From: an uncultured Methanosarcinales archaeon
GTDB taxonomy: Archaea; Nanobdellota; Nanobdellia; Woesearchaeales; CAZOXR01
Assembly (NCBI GenBank): GCA_964566535.1
Contig: CAZMIO010000001.1
Coordinates: forward strand, 183,751 to 247,750
DNA length: 64,000 bases
Reading direction: 5' to 3'
Positions 1,883-22,608 of the stretch are shown here, one piece after another (the stretch's first letter is position 1; the number at the start of each line of letters is the position of its first letter). The notes below the pieces were generated by a model. The model was not told where the DNA came from and did no database searches. It was given only the letters and a program-made list of their open reading frames with translations. Made by a program: the position numbers and the translations under genes.

Positions 1883-4266
1883 GGAAAGGGTATTTGATTT
1901 TGGTTCTGTTTTTGGTTATTAGTAGTTATCTTGTTATTGGCCTTGAGGGGAGTATTGCTCCGGGGGATGGTGGTGAGGTGCCTTCTGGGCCTAGTGATCA
2001 TGATTGGGATGGGGATGGTGTTTTGAATGATGATGATGTTTTTCCTCGGAATCCTAATGAATGGGCTGATGTTGATTTTGATGGGTTTGGGGATAATTGG
2101 GATGCTAAGTATTTAGAGGTTGGGAATAATGATGGGGCTGTGCAGAATGATGATTGGGATGGTGATGGTCTGACGAATATACGTGAGTTTGAGATAGGGA
2201 GTGATCCGAATAGTGTTGTTGTTGGTGGAAGTGGTGATGGTTCTTCAGGTGAGAGTGCTGAAACAACAACTCCTTCTCCAGTGAGTGAGTATAGGGAAAC
2301 TCCTGAAACTTCATGTGGCTGTCCCGATTTAGATGGTGATGGTGAAGTTACAATTTCTGATATGGTTATGGCTGCCGTTGATTTTGGGGAAGGTTATATT
2401 GGAGATTTGGTTTGTGTTGCAACTAGGTTTGGGGGAGAGGTTGAGTGTGGAGAACAAGTAGAGGTTGGTGATGGACAAGCTAGTGAAGTTGTTGATATAG
2501 ATGAAGCGTATCGTGATTTAAGAAGGGGATGGGAAATAGAATCTGGAGATGAGGTTCTTGAAATTAATCTTGAGGAGTATTCATTATCAGAGTTATTTAA
2601 CTCCCTTGGTGTCTCTGAGAGTGCAGTAGTTGAGGTAGGACCAGGGATAGACCCAGTTACTGTAGATATTAAAAAGTTTACAGCTTGGTTTTATGATTTG
2701 GGTATTAGATATAGAATAGATATGGTGCTGGAAATTTTAACATCAGTTGATAGACCTGGAATTGCACCGAGAGGTGTTCACGCAAATATATATGAATATG
2801 AGAATGAATATGGTATTATTGGTGAAGGCCAAATCTCATTAATATCTAAAAATGAAAATAAATACTATAGAGATTCCTTGGAAGGTTATCTAAACCAAAG
2901 AGGAAAATCTGTTAGTACTATTTTGAATGAACTTAAAGGGGATCTAAATAGGCCAAAAGATGAATTTAAACATAGGCAGTATATTGGTGTTGAGGAGGTA
3001 GAAGATTCCCATTTGTTTAGTATATCTGATTTAAGAAGTGGTAGTTTAACATTTATGAGAGGGTCTGCTTTAATAGAAGTAAATTCAGAAGAAGATGTTG
3101 AAGATTTTCCATTAGATGGAGAGATTTTTGAATATCAATTTGATGAAGAAACTGGAATATCAACAGTTACTAGGCATACTAAATATTTAGATTACAGTGG
3201 TGAAGGAGGGATTCAATATGCAGATACTGTAATTTGGGAGATAGGGTTGGAAGGAGAGTTAATCTCTAGAGTTGGTGGAAGAGACCCAATAGCTATACAA
3301 CAAGAATACCAAGAAGGTATTTTAGCAATAACTGCTGATGTTGTTGTTGGTGATGTAGTTGAACATGTACCAATTAAAGGAGGTCTTGAAAAAATAACTG
3401 GAAGAGGTTTTGTTATATCCTCTGGATCCGGTTCTCAAGATGAAACTGACCCACTATCTGAAGATGTATCAGATGGTGAAGACTCATTAGATAGGGTAAA
3501 TGAAAAAGAAGAGAAAGAAGGGAGAGAGGTTGTCACAAATGTAGAGGTTCTTCCAATAGAATCAAAACCAAATGTTGATGATGTAGGTGATGTTAAATTT
3601 CTATATGAGGTCAAGTACTCAACCAAGGATATATTATTACTTCAAATGGATGGGAGACTAGCAGATATTATTGACAATCATGTTCAAGGTATGTTTGAAG
3701 CTGGATATGCAGACAGCCTATATCTAGGTGATTTGTTTCATGGACATTTTTATTCTCTAGATCCACAATTTCATCTAAACTTCCCAGATCATCCAATATC
3801 CCTAGAGGACTGGACAGACATTTATTTGGATGGGGATATGGGGATTGTGTATCACACAAGAGAGGGCGAATATAATGATGTACCTTACACAGGGCCTGCT
3901 AGGAGTCTATTGGGTACATCTGATGGAGAGGTGCGTCCAATGGTACCTCAAAATGATGATGCAAGATTTGAAAATTATGGGACTGTATTTGGGGATGATC
4001 CTTTTTTAACATATGAATCTAATGTTGGAGGCGTGTACATCGGAGATCCTGAAGAACATGAGGGAGTAGGACATACTCAACCAGTTGATGCAACCTTTGA
4101 AGGTACTCATTCTGAGTATGGGATGATACTCTCTGATGATCCTTACAAATACGGCTTGTTCACAGTATTTATGGATGAAAATGGTAGGTACGATTTACCT
4201 AGTGGGGAAAGATATGATATTTTTTATTGGTTAGAAGAAAGGGATGCTGAAGATGATGATAAATAA
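1879..4266 (+). CDS. Large secreted protein with Ca-binding thrombospondin-type-3/dockerin-like Asp repeats
   Basis: N-terminal signal/TM (LILVLFLVISSYLVIG); repeated DWDGDG(V/L)(L/T)N and DLDGDGEVTISDM (dockerin-like) motifs; overlaps the upstream gene by 4 bp (GTGA), suggesting an operon. Confidence 0.55.
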   Translation: MRKGYLILVLFLVISSYLVIGLEGSIAPGDGGEVPSGPSDHDWDGDGVLNDDDVFPRNPNEWADVDFDGFGDNWDAKYLEVGNNDGAVQNDDWDGDGLTNIREFEIGSDPNSVVVGGSGDGSSGESAETTTPSPVSEYRETPETSCGCPDLDGDGEVTISDMVMAAVDFGEGYIGDLVCVATRFGGEVECGEQVEVGDGQASEVVDIDEAYRDLRRGWEIESGDEVLEINLEEYSLSELFNSLGVSESAVVEVGPGIDPVTVDIKKFTAWFYDLGIRYRIDMVLEILTSVDRPGIAPRGVHANIYEYENEYGIIGEGQISLISKNENKYYRDSLEGYLNQRGKSVSTILNELKGDLNRPKDEFKHRQYIGVEEVEDSHLFSISDLRSGSLTFMRGSALIEVNSEEDVEDFPLDGEIFEYQFDEETGISTVTRHTKYLDYSGEGGIQYADTVIWEIGLEGELISRVGGRDPIAIQQEYQEGILAITADVVVGDVVEHVPIKGGLEKITGRGFVISSGSGSQDETDPLSEDVSDGEDSLDRVNEKEEKEGREVVTNVEVLPIESKPNVDDVGDVKFLYEVKYSTKDILLLQMDGRLADIIDNHVQGMFEAGYADSLYLGDLFHGHFYSLDPQFHLNFPDHPISLEDWTDIYLDGDMGIVYHTREGEYNDVPYTGPARSLLGTSDGEVRPMVPQNDDARFENYGTVFGDDPFLTYESNVGGVYIGDPEEHEGVGHTQPVDATFEGTHSEYGMILSDDPYKYGLFTVFMDENGRYDLPSGERYDIFYWLEERDAEDDDK

Positions 4267-9644: not shown

Positions 9645-10970
9645 TTAATATGGTACTGTTAAGTTACCATCAACAAACTGAGTACCTAAAACTTCTACGG
9701 GTATTTGTGGTCTGTTAATTGGGTCTTTTGGAATTATATAAATGAAAACTGGATTTTCTTCTTCAAATGTGGTTGTGTAAAGATAAGTTCCTCCAAAATT
9801 TTCAACTATTTCTCTAGAGCCATATAAACCCATCCCACTAACTGGTCTATCGGGATTACCAGTCATATGTGCCATGTATGCGATTTGTGAAAGGTCTCTT
9901 AGTGTGAGATTATTCCAGGCAAAGTCATTATTCATCCATGCTAGAAATTTATCTCTTTGTTCAGGACTGCACCATGTTAGTTCTGATGGATCTTTCTCTT
10001 TCATTGCACGTCTTAAAGTTGATATCATTAAATCTATGCCTAGTGGCTCTCCTGTATCACTGAAAACTAAAGCAAAATAACCATCAGGTAGGTTGTAAGT
10101 TCCGATTGATGCTCTTCTTTCGCCGTCTAGGCTATCAATGTAGTGGGAGGTTGCTTCGCTAATAGGTATTCCGCCATCTTCTAGTTGGTTTACTGCTTCT
10201 ATTTGTTCATCGTCGAATTTTCTTAAGGAGTTTTTAGGGCCATTGTAGATTATACTTCCTATTGGCCCAGGATCCATGTGTACTTCAACAGCTTCACCGT
10301 GAATATAAATTGATCTTCTAAGAGGTGTATCAATTGGTTCCCTTACAACTCTTGCATCGAGTCTAGCTCCAAGTACTGCTGCAGTATCTTCAATTATACC
10401 ACTTAGATTTGTTCTAGGCATTTCTGGCTGTTCACCCAACCTTAGAGTTAGTAAATAATTGAAAAATTTCCAGGGGTTTGCATACATACGTGCAAGAGTT
10501 CTAGTTGAGTTGTCTAAATCTACATATTGTTGTCTAAAAAATTCTGGGTCTAATTGAAATTCTGCTGAGTCACGACGACTGTGATAATGTTGAAGTCTTT
10601 CGTCTGTAGTAACTTCTGACATTCGTGAGAGTCTGTTTCTTGGATCAACAAGAGAGTATGCTAAATGATTAATGTCGTGAGTTAGGTAACCTAAAAATTC
10701 CGTTCCAAAATGGGAGACGATTAATCTTTCAATACCTTCCTGGAAAGGGGATTCACCGATAATACTTAAGTTTATAGAACATGTTTCCGTTATCTCTCTT
10801 AGTTTTTCTACATGTTCCCTATCTAAAGGTTGTCTTTCTTCGAAAAGCATTTCGATTACTGCATCTACAGTACTGACTGTATGGCCAGGATAAGGTACAA
10901 ATTCACAACCTTCAAAATAAGCTATTTGTCTCTCTGTAAATTCTAGTAATGTTTGTAGGTCTTCTTTCAT
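9645..10970 (-). CDS. Hypothetical protein (GC-richer, R/D/E-rich composition)
   Basis: Long ORF with no recognisable motifs; codon and amino-acid usage differ from neighbouring AT-rich genes. Confidence 0.4.
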   Translation of the reverse strand: MKEDLQTLLEFTERQIAYFEGCEFVPYPGHTVSTVDAVIEMLFEERQPLDREHVEKLREITETCSINLSIIGESPFQEGIERLIVSHFGTEFLGYLTHDINHLAYSLVDPRNRLSRMSEVTTDERLQHYHSRRDSAEFQLDPEFFRQQYVDLDNSTRTLARMYANPWKFFNYLLTLRLGEQPEMPRTNLSGIIEDTAAVLGARLDARVVREPIDTPLRRSIYIHGEAVEVHMDPGPIGSIIYNGPKNSLRKFDDEQIEAVNQLEDGGIPISEATSHYIDSLDGERRASIGTYNLPDGYFALVFSDTGEPLGIDLMISTLRRAMKEKDPSELTWCSPEQRDKFLAWMNNDFAWNNLTLRDLSQIAYMAHMTGNPDRPVSGMGLYGSREIVENFGGTYLYTTTFEEENPVFIYIIPKDPINRPQIPVEVLGTQFVDGNLTVPY

Positions 10971-11083
10971 AAGAAAAAAGAGGCTGAAATAGTTTATAAA
11001 GGTTTTTATTATTACTACTATAAAGTAATTAGTTGATTATGTACACAACTTTTTTAAATAAGGTTCTTTTTCTATGGTAGTAT

Positions 11084-11205
11084 GCGGGTGTAACTCAGCC
11101 TGGTTAGAGTGCTAGACTCATATTTTTGAGTGATGAGGCGAAAGCCGATGAAAAAACTTAAACCGGGTTATCTAGAAGTCGTGATTTCGAATATCGCCAC
11201 CCGCA
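11084..11205 (+). tRNA. Elongator tRNA-Met (anticodon CAU) with a roughly 47-nt intron at canonical position 37/38
   Basis: Acceptor GCGGGUG/CACCCGC (G1-C72, so not the initiator); D-arm ACUC-AGCCUGGUUA-GAGU; anticodon stem CUAGA/UCUAG with loop CUCAUA; T-arm GUGAU-UUCGAAU-AUCGC; the intron contains GUGAUGA...GGCGAAAGCC...CGAUGA. Confidence 0.7.
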
Positions 11206-12042
11206 CTATTTTTTCTCTAATCTTTTCTTTTTCTCAGAAGTAATTAGGTAGTTATCATTAGAAATAACACTTTTGCCTAATCTTTGTTCAATGTCTTTTC
11301 TAGTAGAACCTGCAACTTCTCCGCCATCTCTTGCATCTTCTTTTAGTTTTGGAAAAACTTGGGAATCTCTTTCTTTTGTGAACCTTGTTGTAGTTGCTTC
11401 GCCCAGCATTGTTAATACTAATTCTATATCATCCATATGATCCCTTAAATTTTGGTTTTCTAGGCATTTATAATCTTTATACTCTTTTGGTGTTAAGTCA
11501 AATGTTGCCTTTGTTATCTCTGCTGTAAGGATTGAGTATTCTTTATTGGTCTTTACTCCTCTTTTATCCCATTCGTCTGTTAATTCGTCCCTTATTGCTA
11601 TTCCCCTAATCCTCTTTTCAATCCAATTATCAGAATAACCTTTGGATTTATAGAGCTCTTTCATTCGTTTTTGAGCTAATTCTGGGTCTTCTATTTCCTG
11701 AACTCTTTCGTATCCTACTTTTGCTAACCATCTTTTGAATGGTTCTGCTTTTTTTGAGGGGATGGATTGGATTATTCGAAACATGGATTTAGTGTGGGCA
11801 CAATCTGTTAAGTATCTCTTTCCATCTGCTGAGAGTAATTTCAGTTGTCGACAAAATGTCGATAACTCGGTTTCACTAGATTCGAACTCTCTTTTTTTCA
11901 AACGATACCAATAGTCTTTTGCATCGACACTATCTGTTAATGCTTCCACAATGTCAACCACTGAGAAATACCATTGTTCATTGTAATATATTCTCCTAAT
12001 GTTCTTTCCCTGGAATACAACTAATGCCTTGTTTTGGTCCAT
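11206..12042 (-). CDS. Bro-N domain protein (phage/mobile-element-associated family), paralog 1
   Basis: N-terminal MDQNKALVVFQGKNIRRIYYNEQWYFSVVDIVEALT has the Bro-N pattern; 278 aa; paralog of 39588..40424. Confidence 0.55.
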   Translation of the reverse strand: MDQNKALVVFQGKNIRRIYYNEQWYFSVVDIVEALTDSVDAKDYWYRLKKREFESSETELSTFCRQLKLLSADGKRYLTDCAHTKSMFRIIQSIPSKKAEPFKRWLAKVGYERVQEIEDPELAQKRMKELYKSKGYSDNWIEKRIRGIAIRDELTDEWDKRGVKTNKEYSILTAEITKATFDLTPKEYKDYKCLENQNLRDHMDDIELVLTMLGEATTTRFTKERDSQVFPKLKEDARDGGEVAGSTRKDIEQRLGKSVISNDNYLITSEKKKRLEKK

Positions 12043-12082
12043 TTTAAAGAATCTTAATCTAAGAATATGAGGAACATGGATA

Positions 12083-12148
12083 TTTATAAACTTTCCGAGG
12101 GTCCATGTCCAGTGGGTTGTGGTAAGAAATTATAATTTAATAGTTGAA
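12083..12148. promoter_or_regulatory. Family-1 upstream module, copy A (TATA TTTATAAA plus conserved box CTTTCCGAGGGTCCATGTCCAGTGGGTTGTGG plus AATTTAATAGTTGAA), 5' of the Bro-N gene
   Basis: Related copies at 20127..20215, 22519..22608 and 40464..40497, each directly upstream of a minus-strand gene. Confidence 0.65.
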
Positions 12149-12227
12149 TGTATCTTTTAGTGATATACAATAATGGACGAGACAAAAATAAAAAAGATTT
12201 AAATAAAATCGATTACTAGTTGATATT

Positions 12228-12701
12228 ATGAAAACTTTAGTTGTTTATTATTCAAGAACTGGAACAACAAAAAAGGTTGGTGAAGAGATTTCTAAGTTGT
12301 TGGAATGTGATAGTGAAGAGATTTCTGATATAAGGGGTAGAAAAGGCTTTATTGGCTATATTATGGCTGGGAAGGAAGCTAGTTTGAAGCAGCTTGGTAG
12401 GATTGAGAAGACTGTAAAAGATGCTAGTTCGTATGATCTGGTTGTTATTGGAACTCCTATTTGGAGTTTTAATATGAGCAGTCCGATTAGGAGATATTTA
12501 ACTCAAAATAAAGGTAAATTCAAGAAGGTTGCTTTTTTTTGTACTCATAAGGGTTCTGGTGGTGAGAAGGCTTTTTCTGAGATGGAAGAGGTGAGTGAGG
12601 TTAAATCAATAGGTAATTTGGTTCTTTCTACGAAGGAAGTTGTTGTTGATGGTTTTGTTGAGAAGGTTAAAGTGTTTGTTCGTAACATATCATCTGAATA
12701 G
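12228..12701 (+). CDS. Flavodoxin-like protein
   Basis: N-terminal KTLVVYYSRTGTTKKVGEEI (flavodoxin FMN-phosphate loop S/T-x-T-G-x-T). Confidence 0.6.
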   Translation: MKTLVVYYSRTGTTKKVGEEISKLLECDSEEISDIRGRKGFIGYIMAGKEASLKQLGRIEKTVKDASSYDLVVIGTPIWSFNMSSPIRRYLTQNKGKFKKVAFFCTHKGSGGEKAFSEMEEVSEVKSIGNLVLSTKEVVVDGFVEKVKVFVRNISSE

Positions 12702-12753
12702 ATATTTTTACCATTATTGAGTAATATAGATAGGTAAATTTATAAAATAAATA

Positions 12754-13836
12754 ATGTCTCTTTCTGCATCAGATAAAATGCCAAGGAATAAACCAGAGAT
12801 GGATTTAGAGGTAGTAAGAGAACTTCGAAGGAAGAGAAGAATAGCTCCTTTAGAGAAACGTCCAGTTAATGATGAATATAGGGTAGAGGTCAAAGGTCCA
12901 TTTGCTGAAGAACCAAAATATGATAGCTACCTTGAGAGAGTAAATGGGATTGCAAGCGATACAACTCCGATGAGTGAGGATTCTGAGCTTATGGGAATTT
13001 TAGATGCCACCAATCCTAAGTCTGGACTAGTTGCTCAGGTTGCAGGCCTAACAAGAGGACAGTTTGTGTTGGCCTTAGAGAATACTACAACAATCGAGTT
13101 ATCTGAAGGGTGCGGTCATCAATGCTTTTATTGTTGTACTGATTCATATACTAAGCTAGGTCAACAGATCCCATTTGATTTTTTAGAATATGTGTTGAAT
13201 AATCATGGAGATAGTCTCTATGATGATACTAACTTTGGAAGACAGACAGATTCATTAGATTATCGTAGATTGGTTGATTTCTTGAGATTATGGCTAGATG
13301 TTAAGGGAAAACCTTCTGGTTATGTGGTGACAAATGCGCATCTTGGAAGGAGAATTGGTGATATAAGAGAAATCCTCTCATTAGGGGTTGATGTCGTTAT
13401 GAGTAATCGGGATGAGCAGATGGAAAGGTTAGATCATGATGATGTTGAGGCATTAGAGGATGGAAATATAACTAAAGGTCATGGAAAACTCGACTTTTAT
13501 GATGTAGATGTTCAGAGCAGGCATGGGTTTTATGGATTACATGAGCATGATGGAGATGTTAGTGCAATTGAGCCTTATAGCTGTGGTGGATTTTTATATA
13601 TGAGGCCAAGTGGGTTTTATACGTCATTTGTAGTAGATGTTACTGAAGGGAATCCTCATGGAGTTGTGTATAAACCAATATCTCGTGATTTCTTTTTAAT
13701 CCCTAATATGGCACATGGAGTTGGGGGTGCACCAAATAAATTAGGGGATAAAACAGCCCTTGGATTTTTATATGAACATGAGGGTAGGATTGAAGGAGTT
13801 CCAAGGGATGGAGTAAGGGCAGTAAGGACTGGATAG
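12754..13836 (+). CDS. Hypothetical protein with a possible radical-SAM CX3CX(aromatic)C motif (GC-richer composition)
   Basis: SEGCGHQCFYCC fits CX3CXfC; immediately downstream of a flavodoxin; no other motifs recognised. Confidence 0.3.
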   Translation: MSLSASDKMPRNKPEMDLEVVRELRRKRRIAPLEKRPVNDEYRVEVKGPFAEEPKYDSYLERVNGIASDTTPMSEDSELMGILDATNPKSGLVAQVAGLTRGQFVLALENTTTIELSEGCGHQCFYCCTDSYTKLGQQIPFDFLEYVLNNHGDSLYDDTNFGRQTDSLDYRRLVDFLRLWLDVKGKPSGYVVTNAHLGRRIGDIREILSLGVDVVMSNRDEQMERLDHDDVEALEDGNITKGHGKLDFYDVDVQSRHGFYGLHEHDGDVSAIEPYSCGGFLYMRPSGFYTSFVVDVTEGNPHGVVYKPISRDFFLIPNMAHGVGGAPNKLGDKTALGFLYEHEGRIEGVPRDGVRAVRTG

Positions 13837-13892
13837 TAGATGTATTCCTAAAACAAACTTTTATATATGACTTTGTCTTCTAAATTTGGAAT

Positions 13893-14819
13893 ATGGTAAA
13901 AAAACAATTAACTAAAATATTTTTGTCTGGGAAGGACGTTTTTTCAGACATATTAGGGCAGGAAAAGGTAAAGCATGGCTTAAAGTCAGCTTTGTTGATG
14001 AACAGACACGTTATAATTGTTGGTCCTCCAGGGATTGGCAAGACAACATTAGCTAAGAATTTGGCTGGATTACTTCCGGGCAAGAATTTTGTTAGGATAC
14101 AAGGAAGTCCGGACTTAACTGTTGAGGACCTTCTTGGAGATATTGATCCAATTAAAGCTATGAAGTTTGGGCCTTTGAGTTTGGAGGCTTTTACTAAGGG
14201 TAAGATCTTTAAGGCTGACAAAGGGATATTATTCTTTGATGAGCTTAATAGATGTCCTGAGAAATTGCAGAATGCTTTATTGCAGGTTTTGGAAGAAGGT
14301 AAGGCTACAATTGGAAGCTATGATGTTGATTTTGATATTGATTTTATTTTCTTAGCTACGATGAATCCTGAAGATAGTTCTACTGAGAAATTATCTAATG
14401 TTTTGTTAGATAGATTTGATGTAATTTACATGGACTATCCTGAAAGCGTTGAGATTGAAGAGAAGATTGTTAACGAAAAGTCAGAGAAGGTTGATGTTAA
14501 ATTTCCCGAGGAATTGGTGAAGTTAAATGTTAATTTTATTAAGATATTAAGGGATGATGACAGATTGAGTAAGAAGCCATCTGTAAGAGCTTCTATTGGG
14601 CTTTATGAGAGGGCCCAGAGTAATGCTTTGCTTAAGGGTAAGAAAACAGTTGGTTTTGAGGATATACAGGAAGCAGTTATTTCGGTATTATCTCACAGAA
14701 TTGAGCTTAAGCCATCTGTTAAGTATTTGAAGAGTCCTGTTGAATTTATTGAAGAGGAATTTAAGAAAGTCTCCAGTGATTACGAAGAAATGGGCGAAAA
14801 AAGTGGTGAGGGTCCCTGA
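13893..14819 (+). CDS. AAA+ ATPase of the MoxR/ChlI (Mg-chelatase-like) family
   Basis: Walker A VGPPGIGKTT; Walker B ILFFDELNR; LLQVLEEGKATIG; LATMNPED (sensor). Confidence 0.7.
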   Translation: MVKKQLTKIFLSGKDVFSDILGQEKVKHGLKSALLMNRHVIIVGPPGIGKTTLAKNLAGLLPGKNFVRIQGSPDLTVEDLLGDIDPIKAMKFGPLSLEAFTKGKIFKADKGILFFDELNRCPEKLQNALLQVLEEGKATIGSYDVDFDIDFIFLATMNPEDSSTEKLSNVLLDRFDVIYMDYPESVEIEEKIVNEKSEKVDVKFPEELVKLNVNFIKILRDDDRLSKKPSVRASIGLYERAQSNALLKGKKTVGFEDIQEAVISVLSHRIELKPSVKYLKSPVEFIEEEFKKVSSDYEEMGEKSGEGP

Positions 14820-14859
14820 TGTTGACACACAAGTTAAGGGAACTACTGATATCGAGGAG

Positions 14860-15990
14860 ATGGATGGTAAGTTAACGAAGCAAGAAGAAAATAAATTAAT
14901 GAATTCTGTTTTGACTAACGATAAGGAAACTATAGATGATGGTAAGTTGTTGAAGGAAGCGCTTAATCAAGGTGTTAGTTCTTTTACTCCAGATTTGATG
15001 TATGAGCAGTTAGTGCATAATTATTCTATAACTAAGAAATTACTTGGGCCTGCTTTGATTAAGAGGCTTACTAGTTATGATCCTAAGTATTTAGAAAGGA
15101 ATGTAAGGATTCCTGAGTTTCACAAGATTTTGAAGGAGAAGTTAGATGAGAATATTGCGAAGTTGAAGGATGAAGGGTTAGTTGGGAAAGAAGGAGAGAT
15201 AACTGATAAAGGTGTTAAGTTGGCATCACTTATTCTTTATACTGAAGAGCTTGATAAGATGATACCTAAAGGTATACTTGGGGAGAAGGTTCATAAGAAG
15301 GAGTTTATTTACGGAGAGAAAGGGGATGTTAAGACTTATAAGAAAGGGGATAGGTACAGAGATATTGCGGTTAAGCGGTCTGCTAAATTGGCTATTAGAC
15401 GAGGTCATGATAAGTTACATAAGTCTGATTTGAAGATTTTTGAAAGACAGAGCAAAGGAAAGATTTCTTTGATTTATGCGCTTGATGCTTCTGGTTCGAT
15501 GAAAGGCAAGAAGTTAGAGGTTGCTAAGAAAGCTGGGATTGCACTTGCGTTTAAGGCAATTGATGAGAAGGATGAGGTTGGACTAATGGTGTTTGGTTCT
15601 GATGTTAAGTCTAGTGTTGCGCCTACTTCTGATTTTTCTAGGTTGCTTCTTGAGATTACTCAGATTAAGGCTAGTCGGGAGACAAATATTGCTTTAACGC
15701 TTAAGAAGGCAGTTGAATTGTTTCCTAATCGAGATATTACTAAGCATTTGATTTTGTTAACAGATGCTTTGCCTACGGTTGGTGATAAGCCTGAGGAAGA
15801 GACACTTGAGGCTGTTTCTTTGGCTAGGAGTAATGGAATTACAATTTCTATGATTGGTATTAATTTGGATAAGAAAGGAAAGGAGTTGGGTGAAAAGGTA
15901 GCTAGGCTTGGTGATGGTAAGTTTTATGTTGTTAGGGATTTGGATGAGGTTGATAAAGTGGTTCTTGAGGATTATTATAGTGTGCTTTGA
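14860..15990 (+). CDS. von Willebrand factor A (vWA) domain protein, ChlD-like partner of the upstream AAA+
   Basis: MIDAS motif LIYALDASGSMKG and LLTDALPTVG; the ORF opens at 14740 and overlaps the ATPase, so the start at Met-41 (14860) is more plausible. Confidence 0.6.
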   Translation: MDGKLTKQEENKLMNSVLTNDKETIDDGKLLKEALNQGVSSFTPDLMYEQLVHNYSITKKLLGPALIKRLTSYDPKYLERNVRIPEFHKILKEKLDENIAKLKDEGLVGKEGEITDKGVKLASLILYTEELDKMIPKGILGEKVHKKEFIYGEKGDVKTYKKGDRYRDIAVKRSAKLAIRRGHDKLHKSDLKIFERQSKGKISLIYALDASGSMKGKKLEVAKKAGIALAFKAIDEKDEVGLMVFGSDVKSSVAPTSDFSRLLLEITQIKASRETNIALTLKKAVELFPNRDITKHLILLTDALPTVGDKPEEETLEAVSLARSNGITISMIGINLDKKGKELGEKVARLGDGKFYVVRDLDEVDKVVLEDYYSVL

Positions 15991-16034
15991 TTATAACCCA
16001 TAATTTTATATATTAATTACATTTAATCTTCTTT

Positions 16035-16637
16035 ATGAAAATATTAGCATTTACTGATACGCATGGTTCGATGAAGGCTATGAAGGAGATAGCTGAGAAG
16101 GCTGTTAAGGAGAAAGTTGATCTATTAGTTTGTGCTGGGGATGTTTCTATTTTTGAGCAGGGTTTGGAGTATTTGCTTCAGAGATTTGATAAGATTGGGA
16201 TTCCTATGTTGATTATTCCAGGTAATCATGAGACTGAGGAAGAGTTAGAGAAGGTAAGTTCTAAGTTTGAGAATATTAATCATATTCAAGGGAAGCATTA
16301 TGAGAGAGATGATGTTTTGTTTTTTGGGTATGGTGGTGGAGGGTTTTCTATTGTTGATCCTGATTTTGTAAAGAAAGGTAAAGAGTTTGAGGAGAAGATC
16401 AAGAAGAGCGGAGTTAAGAAGGTTGTTTTGGTTACTCATGCTCCACCGCATAATACGAAGATAGATAGATTGAGTAAGGAGTCTGTTGGCAACAAATCAA
16501 TAAGGCAGTTTATTGACAAAGTTAAGCCTGTGCTAGTTATTTCAGGGCATCTGCATGAGAATGCTGGTAAGGAAGATAAAGTGGGGAAGACAAAAGTAAT
16601 TAATCCTGGTCCGTTTGGGAAGGTTTTAAATATCTGA
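16035..16637 (+). CDS. Calcineurin-like metallophosphoesterase (second copy)
   Basis: Motifs DTHGS, GDV, GNHE, THAPP, GHLHE. Confidence 0.7.
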   Translation: MKILAFTDTHGSMKAMKEIAEKAVKEKVDLLVCAGDVSIFEQGLEYLLQRFDKIGIPMLIIPGNHETEEELEKVSSKFENINHIQGKHYERDDVLFFGYGGGGFSIVDPDFVKKGKEFEEKIKKSGVKKVVLVTHAPPHNTKIDRLSKESVGNKSIRQFIDKVKPVLVISGHLHENAGKEDKVGKTKVINPGPFGKVLNI

Positions 16638-16644
16638 TATTCTT

Positions 16645-18885
16645 TTGAGTAGGTATAAGTGGAAGTGGTGTTGTAATATTGTAAGGCGCACAAAAAAGAG
16701 GGTAGGGAGATCTATTATTGACTGGCGTAAAAATAGGGCTAGGTCAAGGTCAGAAAGAGAGGAGATAGAAAGACGTCTTAAAGAGTACGAATCAGATGTT
16801 AAATCTGAGACAAAGAGTTTTAAGAGATTTTCTAGTCATCAAAGAGAAAAGCGTAAATTAGTAGTGGATATAAAACGATTGTGGAATAAAAAGTGGGAAA
16901 GAGCTGACCATGTGCTTAAACATGATTTGCCACGTATAATTCACTCTCAAATTCATTTTTTAACAGGATTAAATGAAAGTTTAGAGGATTCTTCTCTTAT
17001 TGTTAGAGAGGTTTTTCAAACTCCTAATTATTCTGATAGGGAGGTTTTCAATGAAGAGATGAGTGAAGGAGTTACAGCTGAGAAAGGTGTTGTTGCTCAT
17101 GAGATGGTTGTGGGTGGAAATGACGGCATTGTCTCGATGATAAATTATCATACTGCTCAGATAGTTGAAGAAATTAGGCAATTAAAAGAATTGTTAATGA
17201 GGGAGCTTGATGAACTAGAGAGACATACGTCTTGGGAGACAGTTGCTCAAGGAGATTTGATAACGCGCATTGATGAGCAAGATAATATAGTTAGTAATGT
17301 TAGAGAAGTATTGGGGAGATTAATTATAGACTCTCATGCATTGATATCGGAGGAGGAAGGTAGGAGAGAAGAGGAGAGAAAAAGAGTTGAAGAAGAGGAA
17401 AAGATAAGGAAACGTAGACAAGAACGAGATGATAAGGAACAGGCTATGTATAATAGGAATGAACAAGGCATGTTAGAGAGGTTTAAAAGAGATGCGTCAA
17501 TTGAATATAGAAAACTGAGGATAATTCATGAGTTAGAAGATATCCATGAAAATAGGGAACTTCGTAGAATATATTTAAGATATTTATCTATTATGAGAGA
17601 GCACAACATTGCTGCGTTGAGTTATTTTAATTCATTAGATACAAGGCAGGTTTTAAGGCAAATTCCTGAGCCTAAGCCCACTACTAGGGTACTCTGGGGT
17701 TTGAAGAGAGACGTTATTGCGAACCTAAACAATCAAAATGAGTGTATAGCTGCATTAACTACTCAAATTACCAACGGAAGATATTATTTTAAACAGCATC
17801 TTGTTGAAGAGCATGGTCATGATGAAGCTGCTGCTCATAGAGATACGCACCTTTCTGAAAGGTTATATCAACTAATAGATCTGATTGGTAGGGAATTTTA
17901 TGCTTATAAGAAAAAGTTTGCTAGGTTGTTGAAACGTCCTTTAGTATTTTCTGTTCCTTGTTCTATCACAGGAAGAGAGTTGCCTTATTATGATGAGAGA
18001 AGTATGGACAATCTAATCAATGATTTGTTTGGACGAATTAGTGGAAGTCATACACCTTATGCTGATTATATCACTGAAGAAGAGATATTATGCACAAGAG
18101 ATGAGTATGAGCAGTATGATGATGCAAGGAAGAACCGTATTGAAAGAGTTAGAAGGAAAGTATTCGAATTATTTAAGCAAGAACTTGAGATAAATCCACG
18201 TGGAGCTAATATTCTTTTTCATAATCAAGATTTTGATAGTGCAGCCGAAATTGTAAAAAGAGGCTGTATTTCCTCAGGTCATGAATTAATGCGAAATGAG
18301 GGGGCTAACCTTCGAAGAATGCCAGTTGGAGTAGGATCGGCAATCTGGTTGGATTTTAATAATCCTCAAAATATGGGTTTTGGTTGGAGTAAATTCCAAA
18401 ATGGAGGAGTAGCTTTTGCTGTACCTGTATCGAAGGCATTGCACAATCAGTATATCATTAGGGTAAATAATGTTAATGGTATTGTTTTGTATTTACACAA
18501 AGAATTAGGAGGGGAACATACTGATAAAGTAGATGCATTGAATACAAAGGTTTTCATGAGAGACTCAATTGCAATGATTCCTGTTTCACTATTTAATGAA
18601 TGGGAGGCTATTTTTAAGGCAATTAGTAATAGGCCATATGTAACAATCTATATTGATACTGGATCTAGAAGCCCCTCTCATAGATTTGAGTTTGATAGTG
18701 ATCTTGTGAAAGGTGCTCCTAATCGTGTTTTGGTTCCTTTTTTACGCTCTCTTAACATTCCATTTAATCCAGTTGCTGGACATGCTGTAGGGTTTAGAGA
18801 CCAAAATACTTGGGTAGAAGGTACATCTTATGATATTAGGGGTAATTGTACTGACTATAAGGTATTTAATCCTGGTGATGAATAA
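16645..18885 (+). CDS. Large hypothetical protein: N-terminal Arg/Glu-rich coiled-coil and a C-terminal globular domain of unknown function
   Basis: 746-aa ORF 8 bp after the phosphoesterase; GC-richer composition; no recognisable catalytic motif. Confidence 0.4.
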   Translation: MSRYKWKWCCNIVRRTKKRVGRSIIDWRKNRARSRSEREEIERRLKEYESDVKSETKSFKRFSSHQREKRKLVVDIKRLWNKKWERADHVLKHDLPRIIHSQIHFLTGLNESLEDSSLIVREVFQTPNYSDREVFNEEMSEGVTAEKGVVAHEMVVGGNDGIVSMINYHTAQIVEEIRQLKELLMRELDELERHTSWETVAQGDLITRIDEQDNIVSNVREVLGRLIIDSHALISEEEGRREEERKRVEEEEKIRKRRQERDDKEQAMYNRNEQGMLERFKRDASIEYRKLRIIHELEDIHENRELRRIYLRYLSIMREHNIAALSYFNSLDTRQVLRQIPEPKPTTRVLWGLKRDVIANLNNQNECIAALTTQITNGRYYFKQHLVEEHGHDEAAAHRDTHLSERLYQLIDLIGREFYAYKKKFARLLKRPLVFSVPCSITGRELPYYDERSMDNLINDLFGRISGSHTPYADYITEEEILCTRDEYEQYDDARKNRIERVRRKVFELFKQELEINPRGANILFHNQDFDSAAEIVKRGCISSGHELMRNEGANLRRMPVGVGSAIWLDFNNPQNMGFGWSKFQNGGVAFAVPVSKALHNQYIIRVNNVNGIVLYLHKELGGEHTDKVDALNTKVFMRDSIAMIPVSLFNEWEAIFKAISNRPYVTIYIDTGSRSPSHRFEFDSDLVKGAPNRVLVPFLRSLNIPFNPVAGHAVGFRDQNTWVEGTSYDIRGNCTDYKVFNPGDE

Positions 18886-18928: not shown

Positions 18929-20104
18929 CTAATAGAATAACTCTTGATTCATCTTGAGTTGATTATTAACAACCGTAAATGGTCTTCTTAAAACAACTCT
19001 CAATTTATGTTTGTTTACCATTCTATTTAAGATTGTAGACATTATCCCATATCTCATTTTTAATTTGATCATTAATTCTCTTTTTGTAATAGGGGAATCA
19101 CACAATGAATATACTCTATTTTCAATACTTGTTGGATTATAGGGTGTACTGTAACACTCTATCATTTTTGATAGTTGGTTTTTCTTTATTTCAGAGTTAA
19201 AGCCAATCTTTTCTTTATAATCCTTTAATGAGTATACAATAAGGGTAAATTTTGAAGATCTTATTTTAGTCTTATATCTTATATTTAGATTATCTAAAAC
19301 CATTTGTACCCTTTTAATTCTCCTTACCCCTTTAATGCTCTGCCTTAAAATAATAGTACCATGTATATCTACATGTCCATCAGCATCAAAGAAACCTTTG
19401 GCATATTCTGATTGAACTTTCTTAGAAGCTCCACCTAAAAAATAATCTAACTTTTCTTCAATATTATTGAATAAATCATTTATTTTACTTCCTCCTATAT
19501 GTAGGATAACAAAACCTTCTTTTCTTTGGCGCTTAGAATAACTGATTATTCTTTCATTATTGAATGTCTCCTTAACTTTATCTACTAGGGCTGATTTTAT
19601 AGAATATGTATAAATTGACCATTTATTACTTGTTTTAATTAATTCATCAGTTATTTCTTTATATCTTAATAGCAAATCAATTTCTTTAGGTGAAGAACAC
19701 GCAGCAATTATTGGATTAGCTTTAGAACCATCTCCATCTCTATAACCAAAATACCAAGCTAACTTTTCATTTAGAACAAAACTAGAAGGTAATTCATAAT
19801 GTCCATTGTATCCTTGTGAATTGAAACTTATGATATTATTCCATATTTGTTCAATATTTAAATTTAGATAACTGAGGATTTTTAATAAATCTTTGAATGT
19901 AGGTTTAGTAGCTCCTCTTCGCCAGCAATTTATTGAATTCTTTTGATATCCTAACTCTTTTGCTAAATCTTTTGCAGATGTTCCTGCTTTTTGGATAGCT
20001 TCATTAAAGAGATTAGTTCTAAATTCTTTTTCCAAATTTAACCTAATATTATGAGGTAAAAAATCTTTTATGTGTATTTTTTGATAATGATTATTTGTAT
20101 TCAA
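18929..20104 (-). CDS. Free-standing double-motif LAGLIDADG homing-endonuclease-like protein with an N-terminal HTH (paralog A)
   Basis: HTH-like SAKDLAKELGYQKNSINCWRRG; LAGLIDADG motif 1 LAWYFGYRDGDGS and motif 2 AKGFFDADGHVD about 120 aa apart; acidic residues retained; possible C-terminal wHTH. Confidence 0.6.
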   Translation of the reverse strand: MNTNNHYQKIHIKDFLPHNIRLNLEKEFRTNLFNEAIQKAGTSAKDLAKELGYQKNSINCWRRGATKPTFKDLLKILSYLNLNIEQIWNNIISFNSQGYNGHYELPSSFVLNEKLAWYFGYRDGDGSKANPIIAACSSPKEIDLLLRYKEITDELIKTSNKWSIYTYSIKSALVDKVKETFNNERIISYSKRQRKEGFVILHIGGSKINDLFNNIEEKLDYFLGGASKKVQSEYAKGFFDADGHVDIHGTIILRQSIKGVRRIKRVQMVLDNLNIRYKTKIRSSKFTLIVYSLKDYKEKIGFNSEIKKNQLSKMIECYSTPYNPTSIENRVYSLCDSPITKRELMIKLKMRYGIMSTILNRMVNKHKLRVVLRRPFTVVNNQLKMNQELFY

Positions 20105-20126: not shown

Positions 20127-20215
20127 AGTTGAAACTATGTAAATGATTTATATACTTTCCGGGGGTCCATGTCCAGTGGGTTGTGGATGTAGAAAATCAT
20201 AATTTAATAGTTGAA
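20127..20215. promoter_or_regulatory. Family-1 upstream module, copy B, 5' of LAGLIDADG paralog A
   Basis: TTGAAACTATGTAAATGATTTATATACTTTCCGGGGGTCCATGTCCAGTGGGTTGTGGATGTAGAAAATCATAATTTAATAGTTGAAA; 90-bp near-identity to 22519..22608. Confidence 0.7.
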
Positions 20216-20290
20216 ACACCGTATGAGTGATTTAAAGTGGCAAATAAGAATGATCAATAGTTACAACGAGGATTTTTATGTTCAATGATA

Positions 20291-22518: not shown

Positions 22519-22608
22519 GTTGAGACTATGTAAATGATTTATATACTTTCCGGGGGTCCGTGTCCAGTGGGTTGTGGGATAGAAAATCATAATTTGATAG
22601 TTGAAATA
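22519..22608. promoter_or_regulatory. Family-1 upstream module, copy C, 5' of LAGLIDADG paralog B
   Basis: Same 90-bp element as copy B with 4-5 substitutions. Confidence 0.7.

What the first reader, a model, noticed from the sequence alone, without database searches (positions are those of the whole stretch)
12228..18885. Candidate multi-gene system: flavodoxin, radical-SAM-like, ChlI/MoxR AAA+, vWA, metallophosphoesterase and a 746-aa unknown
Six co-directional, tightly spaced genes on the plus strand. A flavodoxin is the usual reductant for radical-SAM enzymes. It is followed by a protein with a CX3CX(Y)C radical-SAM-like Cys motif, then a MoxR/ChlI-family AAA+ ATPase whose reading frame overlaps a vWA (MIDAS) protein, then a calcineurin-like phosphoesterase, then 8 bp later a large protein with a coiled-coil N-terminus and an uncharacterised C-terminal domain. 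AAA+(MoxR) plus vWA pairs coupled to variable effector-like proteins are the backbone of recently described NTP-dependent conflict and signalling systems. The unknown members have a GC-richer, Arg/Asp/Glu-rich composition, which suggests horizontal acquisition. The cluster could be a chelatase-type cofactor-maturation module or an undescribed defence or conflict system.
Basis: inference. Interest (0 to 1): 0.55.

Follow-up and report, generated by a model that had tools for sequence, protein, structure and literature searches.

The report
Conserved ATPase pair among strain-specific genes
The six neighbouring genes are real but are not one system: only the MoxR-type ATPase and its vWA partner stay together across the Woesearchaeota (small symbiotic archaea), while the flavodoxin, the radical-SAM-like gene and the 746-aa unknown occur only in this one marine population.

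Summary
Six co-directional ORFs lie at 12228-18885 with the stated domains, including a CX3CX2C motif and an AAA+/vWA overlap. The window comes from a marine Candidatus Woesearchaeota MAG.

The one-system interpretation fails. In 80 species-level Woesearchaeota loci the AAA+ and vWA genes are always adjacent. The 200-aa metallophosphoesterase follows on the same strand in 52 of 59 loci with enough downstream sequence, usually after variable DNA. None of these loci carries the flavodoxin, the 360-aa gene or the 746-aa gene. Those three fill variable slots of a conserved housekeeping block, next to Bro-N and LAGLIDADG genes.

The ATPase is closest to a solved MoxR protein. The vWA domain is closest to ArnB and BatB, not to chelatase subunit D.

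The 360-aa protein carries the radical-SAM cysteine motif, but its fold is unproven: Pfam E = 0.067, and similarity beyond the motif is marginal.

The 746-aa protein belongs to a small, fast-diverging family seen so far only in named Woesearchaeota genomes and unnamed metagenome contigs. It has a helical N-terminal half, an unassignable C-terminal domain and no recurrent neighbours.

The result is an ordinary mosaic containing two modestly interesting unknowns.

The parts
12228..12701 (+). Short flavodoxin-like protein (157 aa). Strain-specific accessory gene and possible reductant for the next gene.
   Evidence: Pfam Flavodoxin_4 E = 7e-10, Flavodoxin_5 and Flavodoxin_3 above cut-off. Absent from 80 related species loci. 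Lys-rich, native-like composition.
12754..13836 (+). 360-aa orphan with a CX3CX2C motif (C120, C124, C127, with Tyr before the third Cys). Candidate highly divergent radical-SAM enzyme; fold unproven.
   Evidence: Motif. Pfam Radical_SAM only E = 0.067, 13.8 bits against a cut-off of 29.5, aa 114-215 on profile positions 1-105. hhalign against a Taw1 profile scores 33.3, against 28.8 +/- 2.1 in 200 shuffles that keep the motif; 8 of 200 reach it. Only self-type hits among 5.8 billion clusters. AlphaFold2 single-sequence model pLDDT 31.5.
13893..14819 (+). MoxR-class AAA+ ATPase (308 aa), a core gene of the lineage.
   Evidence: AAA_5, AAA_3, AAA_lid_2. Best solved relative is the MoxR protein 2r44, E = 7e-20, against ChlI/BchI at about 1e-9 to 1e-10. 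Present directly upstream of vWA in 80 of 80 species loci. TATA-like TTTTATATAT about 27 nt upstream of the ATG.
14803..15990 (+). vWA (MIDAS) partner protein (395 aa) with a conserved ~200-aa N-terminal region of unknown fold. Overlaps the AAA+ stop by 17 nt.
   Evidence: VWA_2, VWA, VWA_3. 1628 homologues, the best 120 at 60-74% identity, all named ones from Woesearchaeota or Nanoarchaeota. MIDAS residues invariant in alignment A2 (D228, S230, S232, T294, D321). Best solved relatives are ArnB 8s05 and BatB; BchD only E = 0.05. The gene overlap is also present in L006-L008.
16035..16637 (+). YfcE-like calcineurin-type metallophosphoesterase (200 aa). A conserved syntenic housekeeping gene with its own TATA-like box.
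   Evidence: Metallophos E = 4e-22. On the same strand downstream of vWA in 52 of 59 loci with at least 4 kb of room, but with a median gap of 643 bp (range -3 to 2754) holding variable ORFs. TTTTATATAT about 25 nt upstream of the ATG.
16645..18885 (+). 746-aa member of a small, fast-diverging family; every member that carries a source name is from Woesearchaeota. Helical N-terminal ~430 aa plus an unassigned C-terminal alpha/beta domain. Strain-specific here.
   Evidence: Exhaustive HMMER over 1.84 billion representatives gives 10 proteins with E <= 0.001, of which four are clear homologues: P0123 1e-41, P0124 6e-21, P0125 4e-17, P0126 2.5e-10. Shared motifs are visible in alignment A1. Names. 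No Pfam, PDB or PHROG hit, even for the isolated domain. AlphaFold2: N-terminal pLDDT mostly 60-86, C-terminal 505-746 below 50. Foldseek finds nothing significant.
9645..12042 (-). Rest of the upstream variable slot: a 441-aa Arg-rich orphan (9645-10970, -), an intron-containing tRNA(CAU) (11084-11205, +) and a Bro-N mobile-type gene (11206-12042, -).
   Evidence: In the closest syntenic relative, L006, the same slot between HIT and AAA+ holds unrelated signalling genes. No tRNA is found in five relatives.
18929..20104 (-). HTH + LAGLIDADG protein. It fills the variable slot between the phosphoesterase and Taw1 together with the 746-aa gene.
   Evidence: HTH_3 E = 2.7e-7 (31 bits, cut-off 23); LAGLIDADG_3 E = 2e-4 (22.0 bits, just under its cut-off of 22.5). 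GC 0.27. Found only in L001-L005, which are the same population.

Best explanation
The region is a mosaic, not a single system.

(1) Conserved unit. A vertically inherited, translationally coupled pair is a core feature of the Woesearchaeota: a MoxR-class AAA+ ATPase and a vWA/MIDAS adaptor protein. By analogy with characterised MoxR/vWA pairs (RavA-ViaA, NorQ-NorD, CbbQ-CbbO, CoxD-CoxE), the vWA protein most likely binds a client through its MIDAS site. The AAA+ hexamer would then use ATP to remodel that client for assembly or metal insertion. The client is unknown.

(2) Syntenic neighbour. The 200-aa YfcE-like metallophosphoesterase belongs to the same long conserved housekeeping block (AAA+ - vWA - phosphoesterase - Taw1 - PepSY-like - dCTP deaminase). 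It has its own promoter-like box and is usually separated from vWA by variable DNA.

(3) Strain-specific fillers. The flavodoxin, the 360-aa CX3CX2C protein and the 746-aa protein are accessory genes dropped into the variable slots of that block, alongside Bro-N and LAGLIDADG genes and a tRNA. The flavodoxin and the 360-aa protein may form a two-gene reductant/radical-SAM-like module. The 746-aa protein is a stand-alone member of a small, rapidly diverging family.

Shown: the linkage pattern, the domain assignments and the orphan status. Inferred: the chaperone mechanism, the flavodoxin/radical-SAM coupling and independent transcription.
For: Organism and population copies.

vWA conservation:
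- 1628 homologues; the best 120 are 60-74% identical, and the named ones are from Woesearchaeota or Nanoarchaeota.
- 357 tblastn-confirmed stretches in the species-representative genome collection, of which 80 loci were kept.

Neighbourhood scan of those loci with the window's proteins:
- AAA+ directly upstream of vWA in 80 of 80 loci.
- Phosphoesterase downstream on the same strand in 52 of 59 loci with at least 4 kb of room. The gap has a median of 643 bp and ranges from -3 to 2754 bp.
- The gap from the phosphoesterase to Taw1 ranges from -7 to 4975 bp.
- No locus outside the window's own population (L001-L005) has a hit to the flavodoxin, the 360-aa, 746-aa or 441-aa ORFs, Bro-N or either LAGLIDADG gene.

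Other points:
- Called genes in L006-L008 show the same backbone with different fillers and a conserved AAA+/vWA overlap.
- Homologues of the 746-aa protein lie in unrelated contexts.
- The AAA+ is nearest to MoxR 2r44. The vWA domain is nearest to ArnB and BatB, not BchD.
- TATA-like boxes precede the 360-aa, AAA+ and phosphoesterase genes.
- CX3CX2C motif with a weak, in-register Radical_SAM hit.
Against: - The phosphoesterase follows vWA in 88% of loci and abuts it (gap of 60 bp or less) in 7 loci as well as in this window. A functional link between the pair and the phosphoesterase, for example loading of its dinuclear metal centre, is therefore not excluded.
- The 746-aa gene starts only 7 nt after the phosphoesterase stop, so it could be co-transcribed with it in this strain.
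- No transcript data were available. TATA-like strings are common in AT-rich DNA.
- The client and function of the AAA+/vWA pair rest entirely on analogy.
- The radical-SAM assignment is statistically marginal beyond the cysteine motif.
- The sampled relatives all share at least 54% vWA identity, so more distant lineages were not examined.
Confidence: 0.8

Rival explanations
1. The six genes form one strain-specific operon-like system. The MoxR/vWA chaperone pair would have been co-opted to mature or regulate newly acquired enzymes (the radical-SAM-like protein with its flavodoxin, and the 746-aa protein), acting as a defence/conflict or cofactor-maturation module.
For: Co-directional genes with tight spacing of 52, 56, -17, 44 and 7 nt. 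The bpMoxR Pfam model passes its cut-off at 40 bits against 27. The phosphoesterase matches the PADLOC candidate PDC-S10 at 3e-23, and the nearby Bro-N gene matches PDC-S13 at 1e-115.
Against: - No conserved linkage in 80 relatives.
- Homologues of the 746-aa protein never neighbour AAA+ or vWA genes.
- The vWA protein has no PADLOC hit and no C-terminal effector domain.
- The pair is universal and strongly conserved, unlike conflict systems as defined in PMC7159879.
- bpMoxR scores well below AAA_3 and AAA_5.
- The phosphoesterase is present in nearly all relatives, so it behaves as a housekeeping gene.
- Promoter-like boxes lie between the genes.
Confidence: 0.07
2. The AAA+/vWA pair is a split ChlD/CobT-type chelatase module that inserts a metal into a tetrapyrrole, and the flavodoxin and radical-SAM-like genes belong to the same cofactor pathway.
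For: The AAA+ hits TIGR02442 (putative cobaltochelatase subunit) at 75.7 bits and BchD-ChlD at 62.3 bits. The vWA protein hits the C-terminal part of TIGR02442 at 50.2 bits. The pair is therefore collinear with the two halves of D-type subunits. JGI annotates some homologues as 'Mg-chelatase subunit ChlD'.
Against: - The scores are about 10% of the curated cut-offs of 779 and 500 bits.
- The solved MoxR protein scores 74.5 bits against 40-42 bits for ChlI/BchI.
- The vWA profile matches BchD only at E = 0.05, against ArnB at 2e-14.
- No ChlH/CobN-like gene is called in any neighbourhood examined.
- Genomes of this archaeal group are generally described as lacking tetrapyrrole synthesis (my own knowledge, not tested here).
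Confidence: 0.05
3. The conserved functional unit has three parts, AAA+, vWA and the 200-aa metallophosphoesterase. The MoxR/vWA pair would load or activate the dinuclear metal centre of the phosphoesterase. The other three genes are irrelevant fillers.
For: The phosphoesterase lies on the same strand downstream in 52 of 59 loci. It directly abuts vWA in 7 loci as well as in this window. Characterised MoxR/vWA pairs commonly mature metal centres, for example NorQD (PMC9976466 and PMC13036017, listed).
Against: - The same loci equally conserve Taw1, a PepSY-like gene and dCTP deaminase downstream, so the synteny is generic for this block.
- The gap usually holds variable ORFs, often on the opposite strand.
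- Seven of 59 loci lack the phosphoesterase downstream.
- The phosphoesterase has its own TATA-like box.
Confidence: 0.12

Closest known systems
MoxR-class AAA+ / vWA chaperone pairs (RavA-ViaA, NorQ-NorD, CbbQ-CbbO, CoxD-CoxE; solved MoxR 2r44)
   Same: A short AAA+ protein with intact Walker A/B motifs and an AAA_lid_2 domain sits next to a MIDAS-bearing vWA protein, and their reading frames overlap. The best solved match for the ATPase is a MoxR protein.
   Different: There is no recognisable client gene. The pair is a core, highly conserved gene pair of a reduced-genome archaeal lineage. The vWA protein carries a lineage-specific ~200-aa N-terminal region with no solved relative.
Mg/Co chelatase ATPase subunits ChlI/BchI + ChlD/BchD (CobS/CobT)
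   Same: The same broad AAA+ group. The AAA+ followed by vWA is collinear with the two halves of D subunits.
   Different: Scores are far below the family cut-offs. The vWA domain is not BchD-like (E = 0.05). No ChlH/CobN partner appears in the neighbourhoods examined.
MoxR-vWA-centric ternary conflict systems (VMAP, iSTAND, FtsH, beta-propeller types; Kaur et al. 2020, PMC7159879)
   Same: A MoxR + vWA core. The bpMoxR model is weakly matched at 40 bits.
   Different: There is no conserved third component and no variable effector domain C-terminal to vWA. The pair is universal in the lineage and 54-74% identical, not sporadic and diversifying.
Radical-SAM enzymes with a flavodoxin reductant
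   Same: A CX3CX2C motif with an aromatic residue before the third Cys, directly downstream of a flavodoxin gene.
   Different: Pfam Radical_SAM is below threshold. There is no clear GGE motif. Similarity beyond the motif is marginal (8 of 200 shuffles reach it). No structure model was usable.
Archaeal vWA regulator ArnB (PDB 8s05; PMC12852372) and BatB-type vWA proteins
   Same: The closest solved vWA domains (E = 2e-14 and 1e-9).
   Different: Only the vWA domain matches. ArnB works with the FHA protein ArnA and kinases, not with a MoxR ATPase. Orthology is not implied.

Membership tests
MoxR AAA+ / vWA chaperone pair | AAA+ of the MoxR class with intact ATPase motifs | tested here: met
   AAA_3 77 bits and AAA_5 80.6 bits, both above cut-off. 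Walker A GPPGIGKT and Walker B FFDE are visible in the translation. Best PDB hit is MoxR 2r44, E = 7e-20.
MoxR AAA+ / vWA chaperone pair | Adjacent vWA protein with an intact MIDAS motif, with the linkage conserved across genomes | tested here: met
   DASGS...T...D is invariant in A2. AAA+ and vWA are adjacent in 80 of 80 loci. Overlapping frames are also seen in L006-L008.
MoxR AAA+ / vWA chaperone pair | A dedicated client complex that the pair matures | not testable with these tools
   No conserved client-like neighbour except the syntenic phosphoesterase. Needs interaction or genetic data.
MoxR-vWA ternary conflict systems (PMC7159879) | A conserved third component (VMAP, iSTAND, FtsH-type or beta-propeller protein) | tested here: not met
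   The 746-aa and 360-aa proteins have no Pfam hits at E <= 10. No third gene is linked in the 80 loci.
MoxR-vWA ternary conflict systems (PMC7159879) | Variable effector domains fused C-terminally to vWA, with sporadic, diversifying distribution | tested here: not met
   vWA is the C-terminal domain (aa 245-407 of the 416-aa TTG-start ORF). Homologues are of uniform length, 391-407 aa apart from one of 366 aa, and 54-74% identical across the lineage.
ChlI/ChlD (CobS/CobT) chelatase | Sequence membership in the I and D subunit families | tested here: not met
   TIGR02442 75.7 bits against a cut-off of 779. BchD-ChlD 62.3 against 499.55. BchI-ChlI 50.5 against 466.95. BchD vWA E = 0.05.
ChlI/ChlD (CobS/CobT) chelatase | Association with a ChlH/CobN porphyrin-binding subunit | tested here: inconclusive
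   None among the called genes of L001 and L006-L008. Whole genomes were not searched.
Radical SAM superfamily | CX3CX2C [4Fe-4S] motif | tested here: met
   C120-x3-C124-x2-C127 with Tyr126.
Radical SAM superfamily | Family profile match or partial TIM-barrel core beyond the motif | tested here: inconclusive
   Pfam 13.8 bits against a cut-off of 29.5. With the motif masked, hhalign gives P = 0.19 but stays in register, aligning VVTNAHL with LVTNGT. Eight of 200 motif-preserving shuffles reach the native score. The AlphaFold2 model is unusable.
Known anti-phage defence systems (PADLOC-DB 2.0) | System-level match of several components | tested here: not met
   Only generic AAA+ hits and the single-gene candidates PDC-S10 (phosphoesterase) and PDC-S13 (Bro-N). 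No hit for the vWA, 360-aa or 746-aa proteins.

The most novel reading that the evidence does not exclude
The 746-aa protein would represent a new Woesearchaeota-specific enzyme or effector family. It has a long coiled-coil stalk and a C-terminal catalytic-looking domain with conserved NILFHS...ISS, AHFGFG and GTKYD..GNC motifs. It might act in symbiont-host or virus interaction, and in this strain it may be co-transcribed with the phosphoesterase. Independently, the flavodoxin and the 360-aa protein could be an extremely divergent new radical-SAM module. Either would add a new protein family, but not a new six-gene system.
Probability: 0.15. Interest if true: 0.5.

Novelty: new member of a known kind. 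Interest (0 to 1): 0.25.

Why it matters
The result removes a false candidate from the list of new conflict systems. It also shows how the gene-order conservation of these reduced archaeal genomes, combined with variable insertion slots, can imitate an operon.

Two smaller points remain of interest. First, a MoxR/vWA pair is retained in every sampled Woesearchaeota species locus despite their small genomes, and its client is unknown. Second, a large family, seen so far only in named Woesearchaeota genomes and unnamed metagenome contigs, has no detectable relative among 1.84 billion representative proteins apart from four remote homologues.

Tried and rejected
- AlphaFold2 on the 360-aa protein as a single sequence gave pLDDT 31.5 and was unusable.
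- AlphaFold2 on the 746-aa protein with a 5-sequence alignment gave moderate confidence only for the N-terminal helices. The C-terminal domain stayed below 50.
- A Foldseek search of that model against the PDB returned only generic long-helix matches, none at E <= 0.001.
- Pfam at E <= 10 found nothing for the full-length proteins, for all five family members, or for the isolated C-terminal domains. Single-sequence and profile searches of the PDB also found nothing.
- PHROGs and PADLOC gave nothing for the unknowns.
- Pairwise BLAST showed that the Arg-rich orphans are unrelated to one another.
- The viral collection holds no relative of either unknown and no copy of the repeat.
- A metagenome scan with an alignment of 746-aa homologues found no confirmed relative. 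The five-sequence alignment was too diverse to give search patterns.
- tRNA-targeted integration was rejected, because no second copy of the tRNA 3' end exists in the window.
- The three-copy repeat shows no RNA structure signal, with z-scores between -0.9 and +0.25.
- The conserved 195-aa gene upstream of AAA+ in 43 relatives is a membrane protein. It is absent from the window and was rejected as a system component.
- I noticed from memory that the motif order His...Ser...Glu in the 746-aa family resembles ADP-ribosyltransferases. No tool result supports this, and the Glu is not conserved in the window's copy, so it is not claimed.

Full report
OBSERVATION

The six + strand ORFs are present exactly as described.
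- Flavodoxin, 12228-12701: Flavodoxin_4 E = 7e-10.
- 360-aa ORF, 12754-13836.
- AAA+ ATPase, 13893-14819: AAA_5 80.6 bits, AAA_3 77 bits, Mg_chelatase 68 bits, AAA_lid_2.
- vWA protein, 14803-15990: GTG start that overlaps the ATPase stop by 17 nt; VWA_2 E = 1e-13.
- Calcineurin-type metallophosphoesterase, 16035-16637: E = 4e-22.
- 746-aa ORF, 16645-18885, starting 7 nt after the phosphoesterase stop.

The 360-aa protein has CGHQCFYC at residues 120-127, and four of its five cysteines lie in that cluster. Neither the 360-aa nor the 746-aa protein matches any Pfam, NCBIfam, PADLOC, PHROG or PDB entry at significance.

Both unknowns are Arg-rich and Lys-poor, with R/(K+R) of 0.63 and 0.65 against about 0.2 in their neighbours. 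Their overall GC is only marginally higher and their GC3 is lower. Co-directionality carries little weight, because most genes in the window are on the + strand.

ORGANISM

An exact-sequence look-up places the window on a contig of a marine Candidatus Woesearchaeota MAG (GCA_030750365.1). Identical copies of the 746-aa gene occur in Tara Oceans and other marine assemblies. The flanking genes are archaeal housekeeping genes: a class-Ic aminoacyl-tRNA synthetase, a histone, HIT, Taw1, dCTP deaminase, thymidylate kinase, ribosomal proteins, NDK and EF-2.

COMPARATIVE TEST OF THE ONE-SYSTEM IDEA

A word-index search of 5.8 billion protein clusters returned only self-type hits for the 746-aa and 360-aa proteins. 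The vWA protein, in contrast, has 1628 homologues. The best 120 are 60-74% identical, and every named one is from Woesearchaeota or Nanoarchaeota.

Three relatives with long contigs (L006-L008) share one backbone: AAA+ - vWA (overlapping) - a variable ORF on the opposite strand - phosphoesterase - Taw1 - a PepSY-like gene - dCTP deaminase. None has a flavodoxin, a 360-aa homologue or a 746-aa homologue.

I extended this to 80 loci from species-representative genomes; 357 stretches were confirmed by tblastn. All their ORFs were scanned with the window's proteins.
- AAA+ lies directly upstream of vWA in 80 of 80 loci.
- The 200-aa phosphoesterase lies downstream on the same strand in 52 of 59 loci with at least 4 kb of room. 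The gap has a median of 643 bp and ranges from -3 to 2754 bp.
- The gap from the phosphoesterase to Taw1 ranges from -7 to 4975 bp.
- The flavodoxin, the 360-aa, 746-aa and 441-aa ORFs, Bro-N and both LAGLIDADG genes are found only in L001-L005, which are the window's own population.

In the closest syntenic relative, L006 (74% vWA identity), the slot between HIT and AAA+ holds HAMP, dCache and response-regulator genes. Here the same slot holds the 441-aa orphan, a tRNA, Bro-N, the flavodoxin and the 360-aa gene. In 43 other loci the gene upstream of AAA+ is a conserved 195-aa membrane protein that is absent from the window.

Only AAA+/vWA is therefore an invariant unit. The phosphoesterase is part of a long syntenic housekeeping block. 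The other three genes are strain-specific fillers of variable slots.

THE AAA+/vWA PAIR

The best solved relative of the ATPase is the MoxR protein 2r44 (E = 7e-20, 74.5 bits). Archaeal LonB (about 1e-13) and ChlI/BchI (about 1e-9 to 1e-10, 40-42 bits) score lower. NCBIfam chelatase models are hit at roughly a tenth of their cut-offs.

A 19-sequence profile of the vWA protein matches the archaeal regulator ArnB (8s05; identified in PMC12852372) at 2e-14 and BatB at 1e-9. It matches BchD's vWA domain only at E = 0.05. The first ~217 residues have no solved relative. The MIDAS residues are invariant.

The pair is therefore a MoxR-type chaperone/adaptor pair, not a chelatase I/D pair. Measured against the definition of MoxR-vWA ternary conflict systems (PMC7159879), it lacks the conserved third component and the C-terminal effector domains. 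It is universal and conserved rather than sporadic and diversifying. Its mechanism is inferred by analogy with NorQD and RavA-ViaA (papers listed): MIDAS-mediated client capture followed by ATP-driven remodelling. The client is unknown.

THE 360-aa PROTEIN

Pfam Radical_SAM matches only at E = 0.067 (13.8 bits, cut-off 29.5), but in the expected register, with aa 114-215 on profile positions 1-105. hhalign against a profile of 52 Taw1 radical-SAM proteins aligns three things: the cysteine motif, the segment around SLDY at the position of GEP, and VVTNAHL opposite LVTNGT (P = 6e-4).

Controls weaken this. With the motif replaced by alanines, the same register is recovered but P rises to 0.19. 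In 200 shuffles that keep the motif in place, the mean score is 28.8 +/- 2.1 against the native 33.3, and 8 of 200 reach it. AlphaFold2 without an alignment failed.

The conclusion is that the motif is present and the fold is unproven. A flavodoxin plus radical-SAM-like two-gene module is plausible, at roughly 0.4 probability, but it is an inference.

THE 746-aa PROTEIN

An exhaustive HMMER search of 1.84 billion representatives found 10 proteins with E <= 0.001. Four are clear remote homologues:
- P0123, 972 aa, E = 1e-41.
- P0124, 942 aa, E = 6e-21.
- P0125, 598 aa, E = 4e-17.
- P0126, 919 aa, E = 2.5e-10.

The two that carry names are from Candidatus Woesearchaeota. The alignment shows a shared helical N-terminal region, with a VWN..WK.A motif and an LP.L motif, and a shared C-terminal domain. 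The C-terminal motifs are NILFHS...ISS, AHFGFG, TKV..D.IA.I and GTKYD..GNCT.YK. An insert of ~250 aa is present only in the longer members.

AlphaFold2 with this alignment models long helices for residues 1-430, with pLDDT mostly 60-86, but fails on residues 505-746. Foldseek gives only generic helical matches. The homologues' neighbourhoods (L009, L090-L093) contain no AAA+, vWA or phosphoesterase gene. A TrmB regulator lies nearby in two of the four. No transmembrane segment is evident.

Its function remains unknown. The protein is a stand-alone member of a fast-diverging family, and it has no conserved linkage to the rest of the cluster.

TRANSCRIPTION HINTS

These are sequence reading only. 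TATA-like boxes (TTTTATATAT) lie about 25-27 nt upstream of the AAA+ and phosphoesterase start codons, and TTTATAAAA lies before the 360-aa gene. A T5 run follows the flavodoxin stop. Only the 746-aa gene has no intergenic room of its own. This fits several transcription units, but it is weak evidence in AT-rich DNA.

VERDICT

What is really there is a conserved MoxR/vWA pair inside a syntenic housekeeping block, flanked by strain-specific accessory genes. The pair is a new member of a known kind. Interest is low to moderate (0.25). The residual value lies in the unknown client of a universally retained chaperone pair in reduced genomes, and in one uncharacterised protein family.

Noticed in passing
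window 12064-12167, 20128-20234, 22519-22600: A ~75-105-nt sequence occurs three times. Its core is CTTTCCGGGGGTCCATGTCCAGTGGGTTGTGG, with 0-1 mismatch and none expected by chance. Each copy lies just upstream of a minus-strand mobile-type gene: Bro-N, HTH+LAGLIDADG and LAGLIDADG-423. On the minus strand it reads as an archaeal BRE/TATA-like promoter (CGGAAAGTATATAAAT) preceded by a GC-rich block. The two LAGLIDADG proteins are barely related, so this is not a simple gene duplication. There is no RNA structure signal. It is absent from 80 related species loci and from the viral collection.
   Followed up: partly
window 1879-4266, 9645-10970, 12754-13836, 16645-18885, 29393-31507 (also 35514-36680 and 52413-53612): A compositional class of genes is Arg-rich and Lys-poor (R/(K+R) of 0.5-0.78 against about 0.2 elsewhere), with raised GC1/GC2 and low GC3. 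Five are large orphans with no Pfam domain and no similarity to each other. Two are metabolic genes (PFK-like and homoserine dehydrogenase-like). This may reflect old transfers from a GC-richer donor whose silent sites have since drifted to the host composition, or a distinct protein class.
   Followed up: partly
window 11084-11205 (+): A 122-nt tRNA with a CAU anticodon and an intron of about 45 nt. Rfam detects it at 50.9 bits, but ARAGORN misses it. Its 3' end abuts the stop codon of the Bro-N gene. No partial duplicate of its 3' end exists in the window, and five related loci have no tRNA in the equivalent slot.
   Followed up: partly
window 11206-12042 (-): The Bro-N protein matches the PADLOC candidate PDC-S13 over its full length (E = 1e-115) and phrog_15286 (E = 1e-89). 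It is about 49% identical to proteins on small 'Bacteriophage sp.' contigs from human faeces. It looks like a widely travelled mobile gene now present in an archaeal symbiont.
   Followed up: partly
window 9645-10970 (-): The 441-aa orphan contains DTGEPLG and GMGLYGSREIVENFGG strings. From memory, these resemble the G1 and G2 boxes of histidine-kinase-type (GHKL) ATPases. No Pfam model matches even at E <= 10. The same slot in relative L006 holds HAMP, dCache and response-regulator genes.
   Followed up: no
window 1879-4266 (+): The 795-aa acidic orphan has an N-terminal hydrophobic segment and repeated D-x-D-x-D-G stretches that look calcium-binding. It is probably a secreted or surface protein.
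   Followed up: no
L014 (JAFCCF010000031.1) and many 'uncultured Methanosarcinales' binchicken MAG contigs (e.g. L012, L013, L016): Contigs labelled Aminicenantes bacterium or Methanosarcinales carry the full Woesearchaeota synteny (AAA+ - vWA - phosphoesterase - Taw1 - PepSY-like - dCTP deaminase) at 57-67% vWA identity. They are probably mis-binned or mislabelled records.
   Followed up: no
L007 5476-6066, L008 6445-7032 and 41 further loci: In most relatives a conserved ~195-aa polytopic membrane protein lies directly upstream of the AAA+ gene, preceded by a CCA-adding enzyme, a sugar-nucleotidyltransferase and a VTT-domain gene. The window has no copy of the membrane protein within its 64 kb.
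   Followed up: partly
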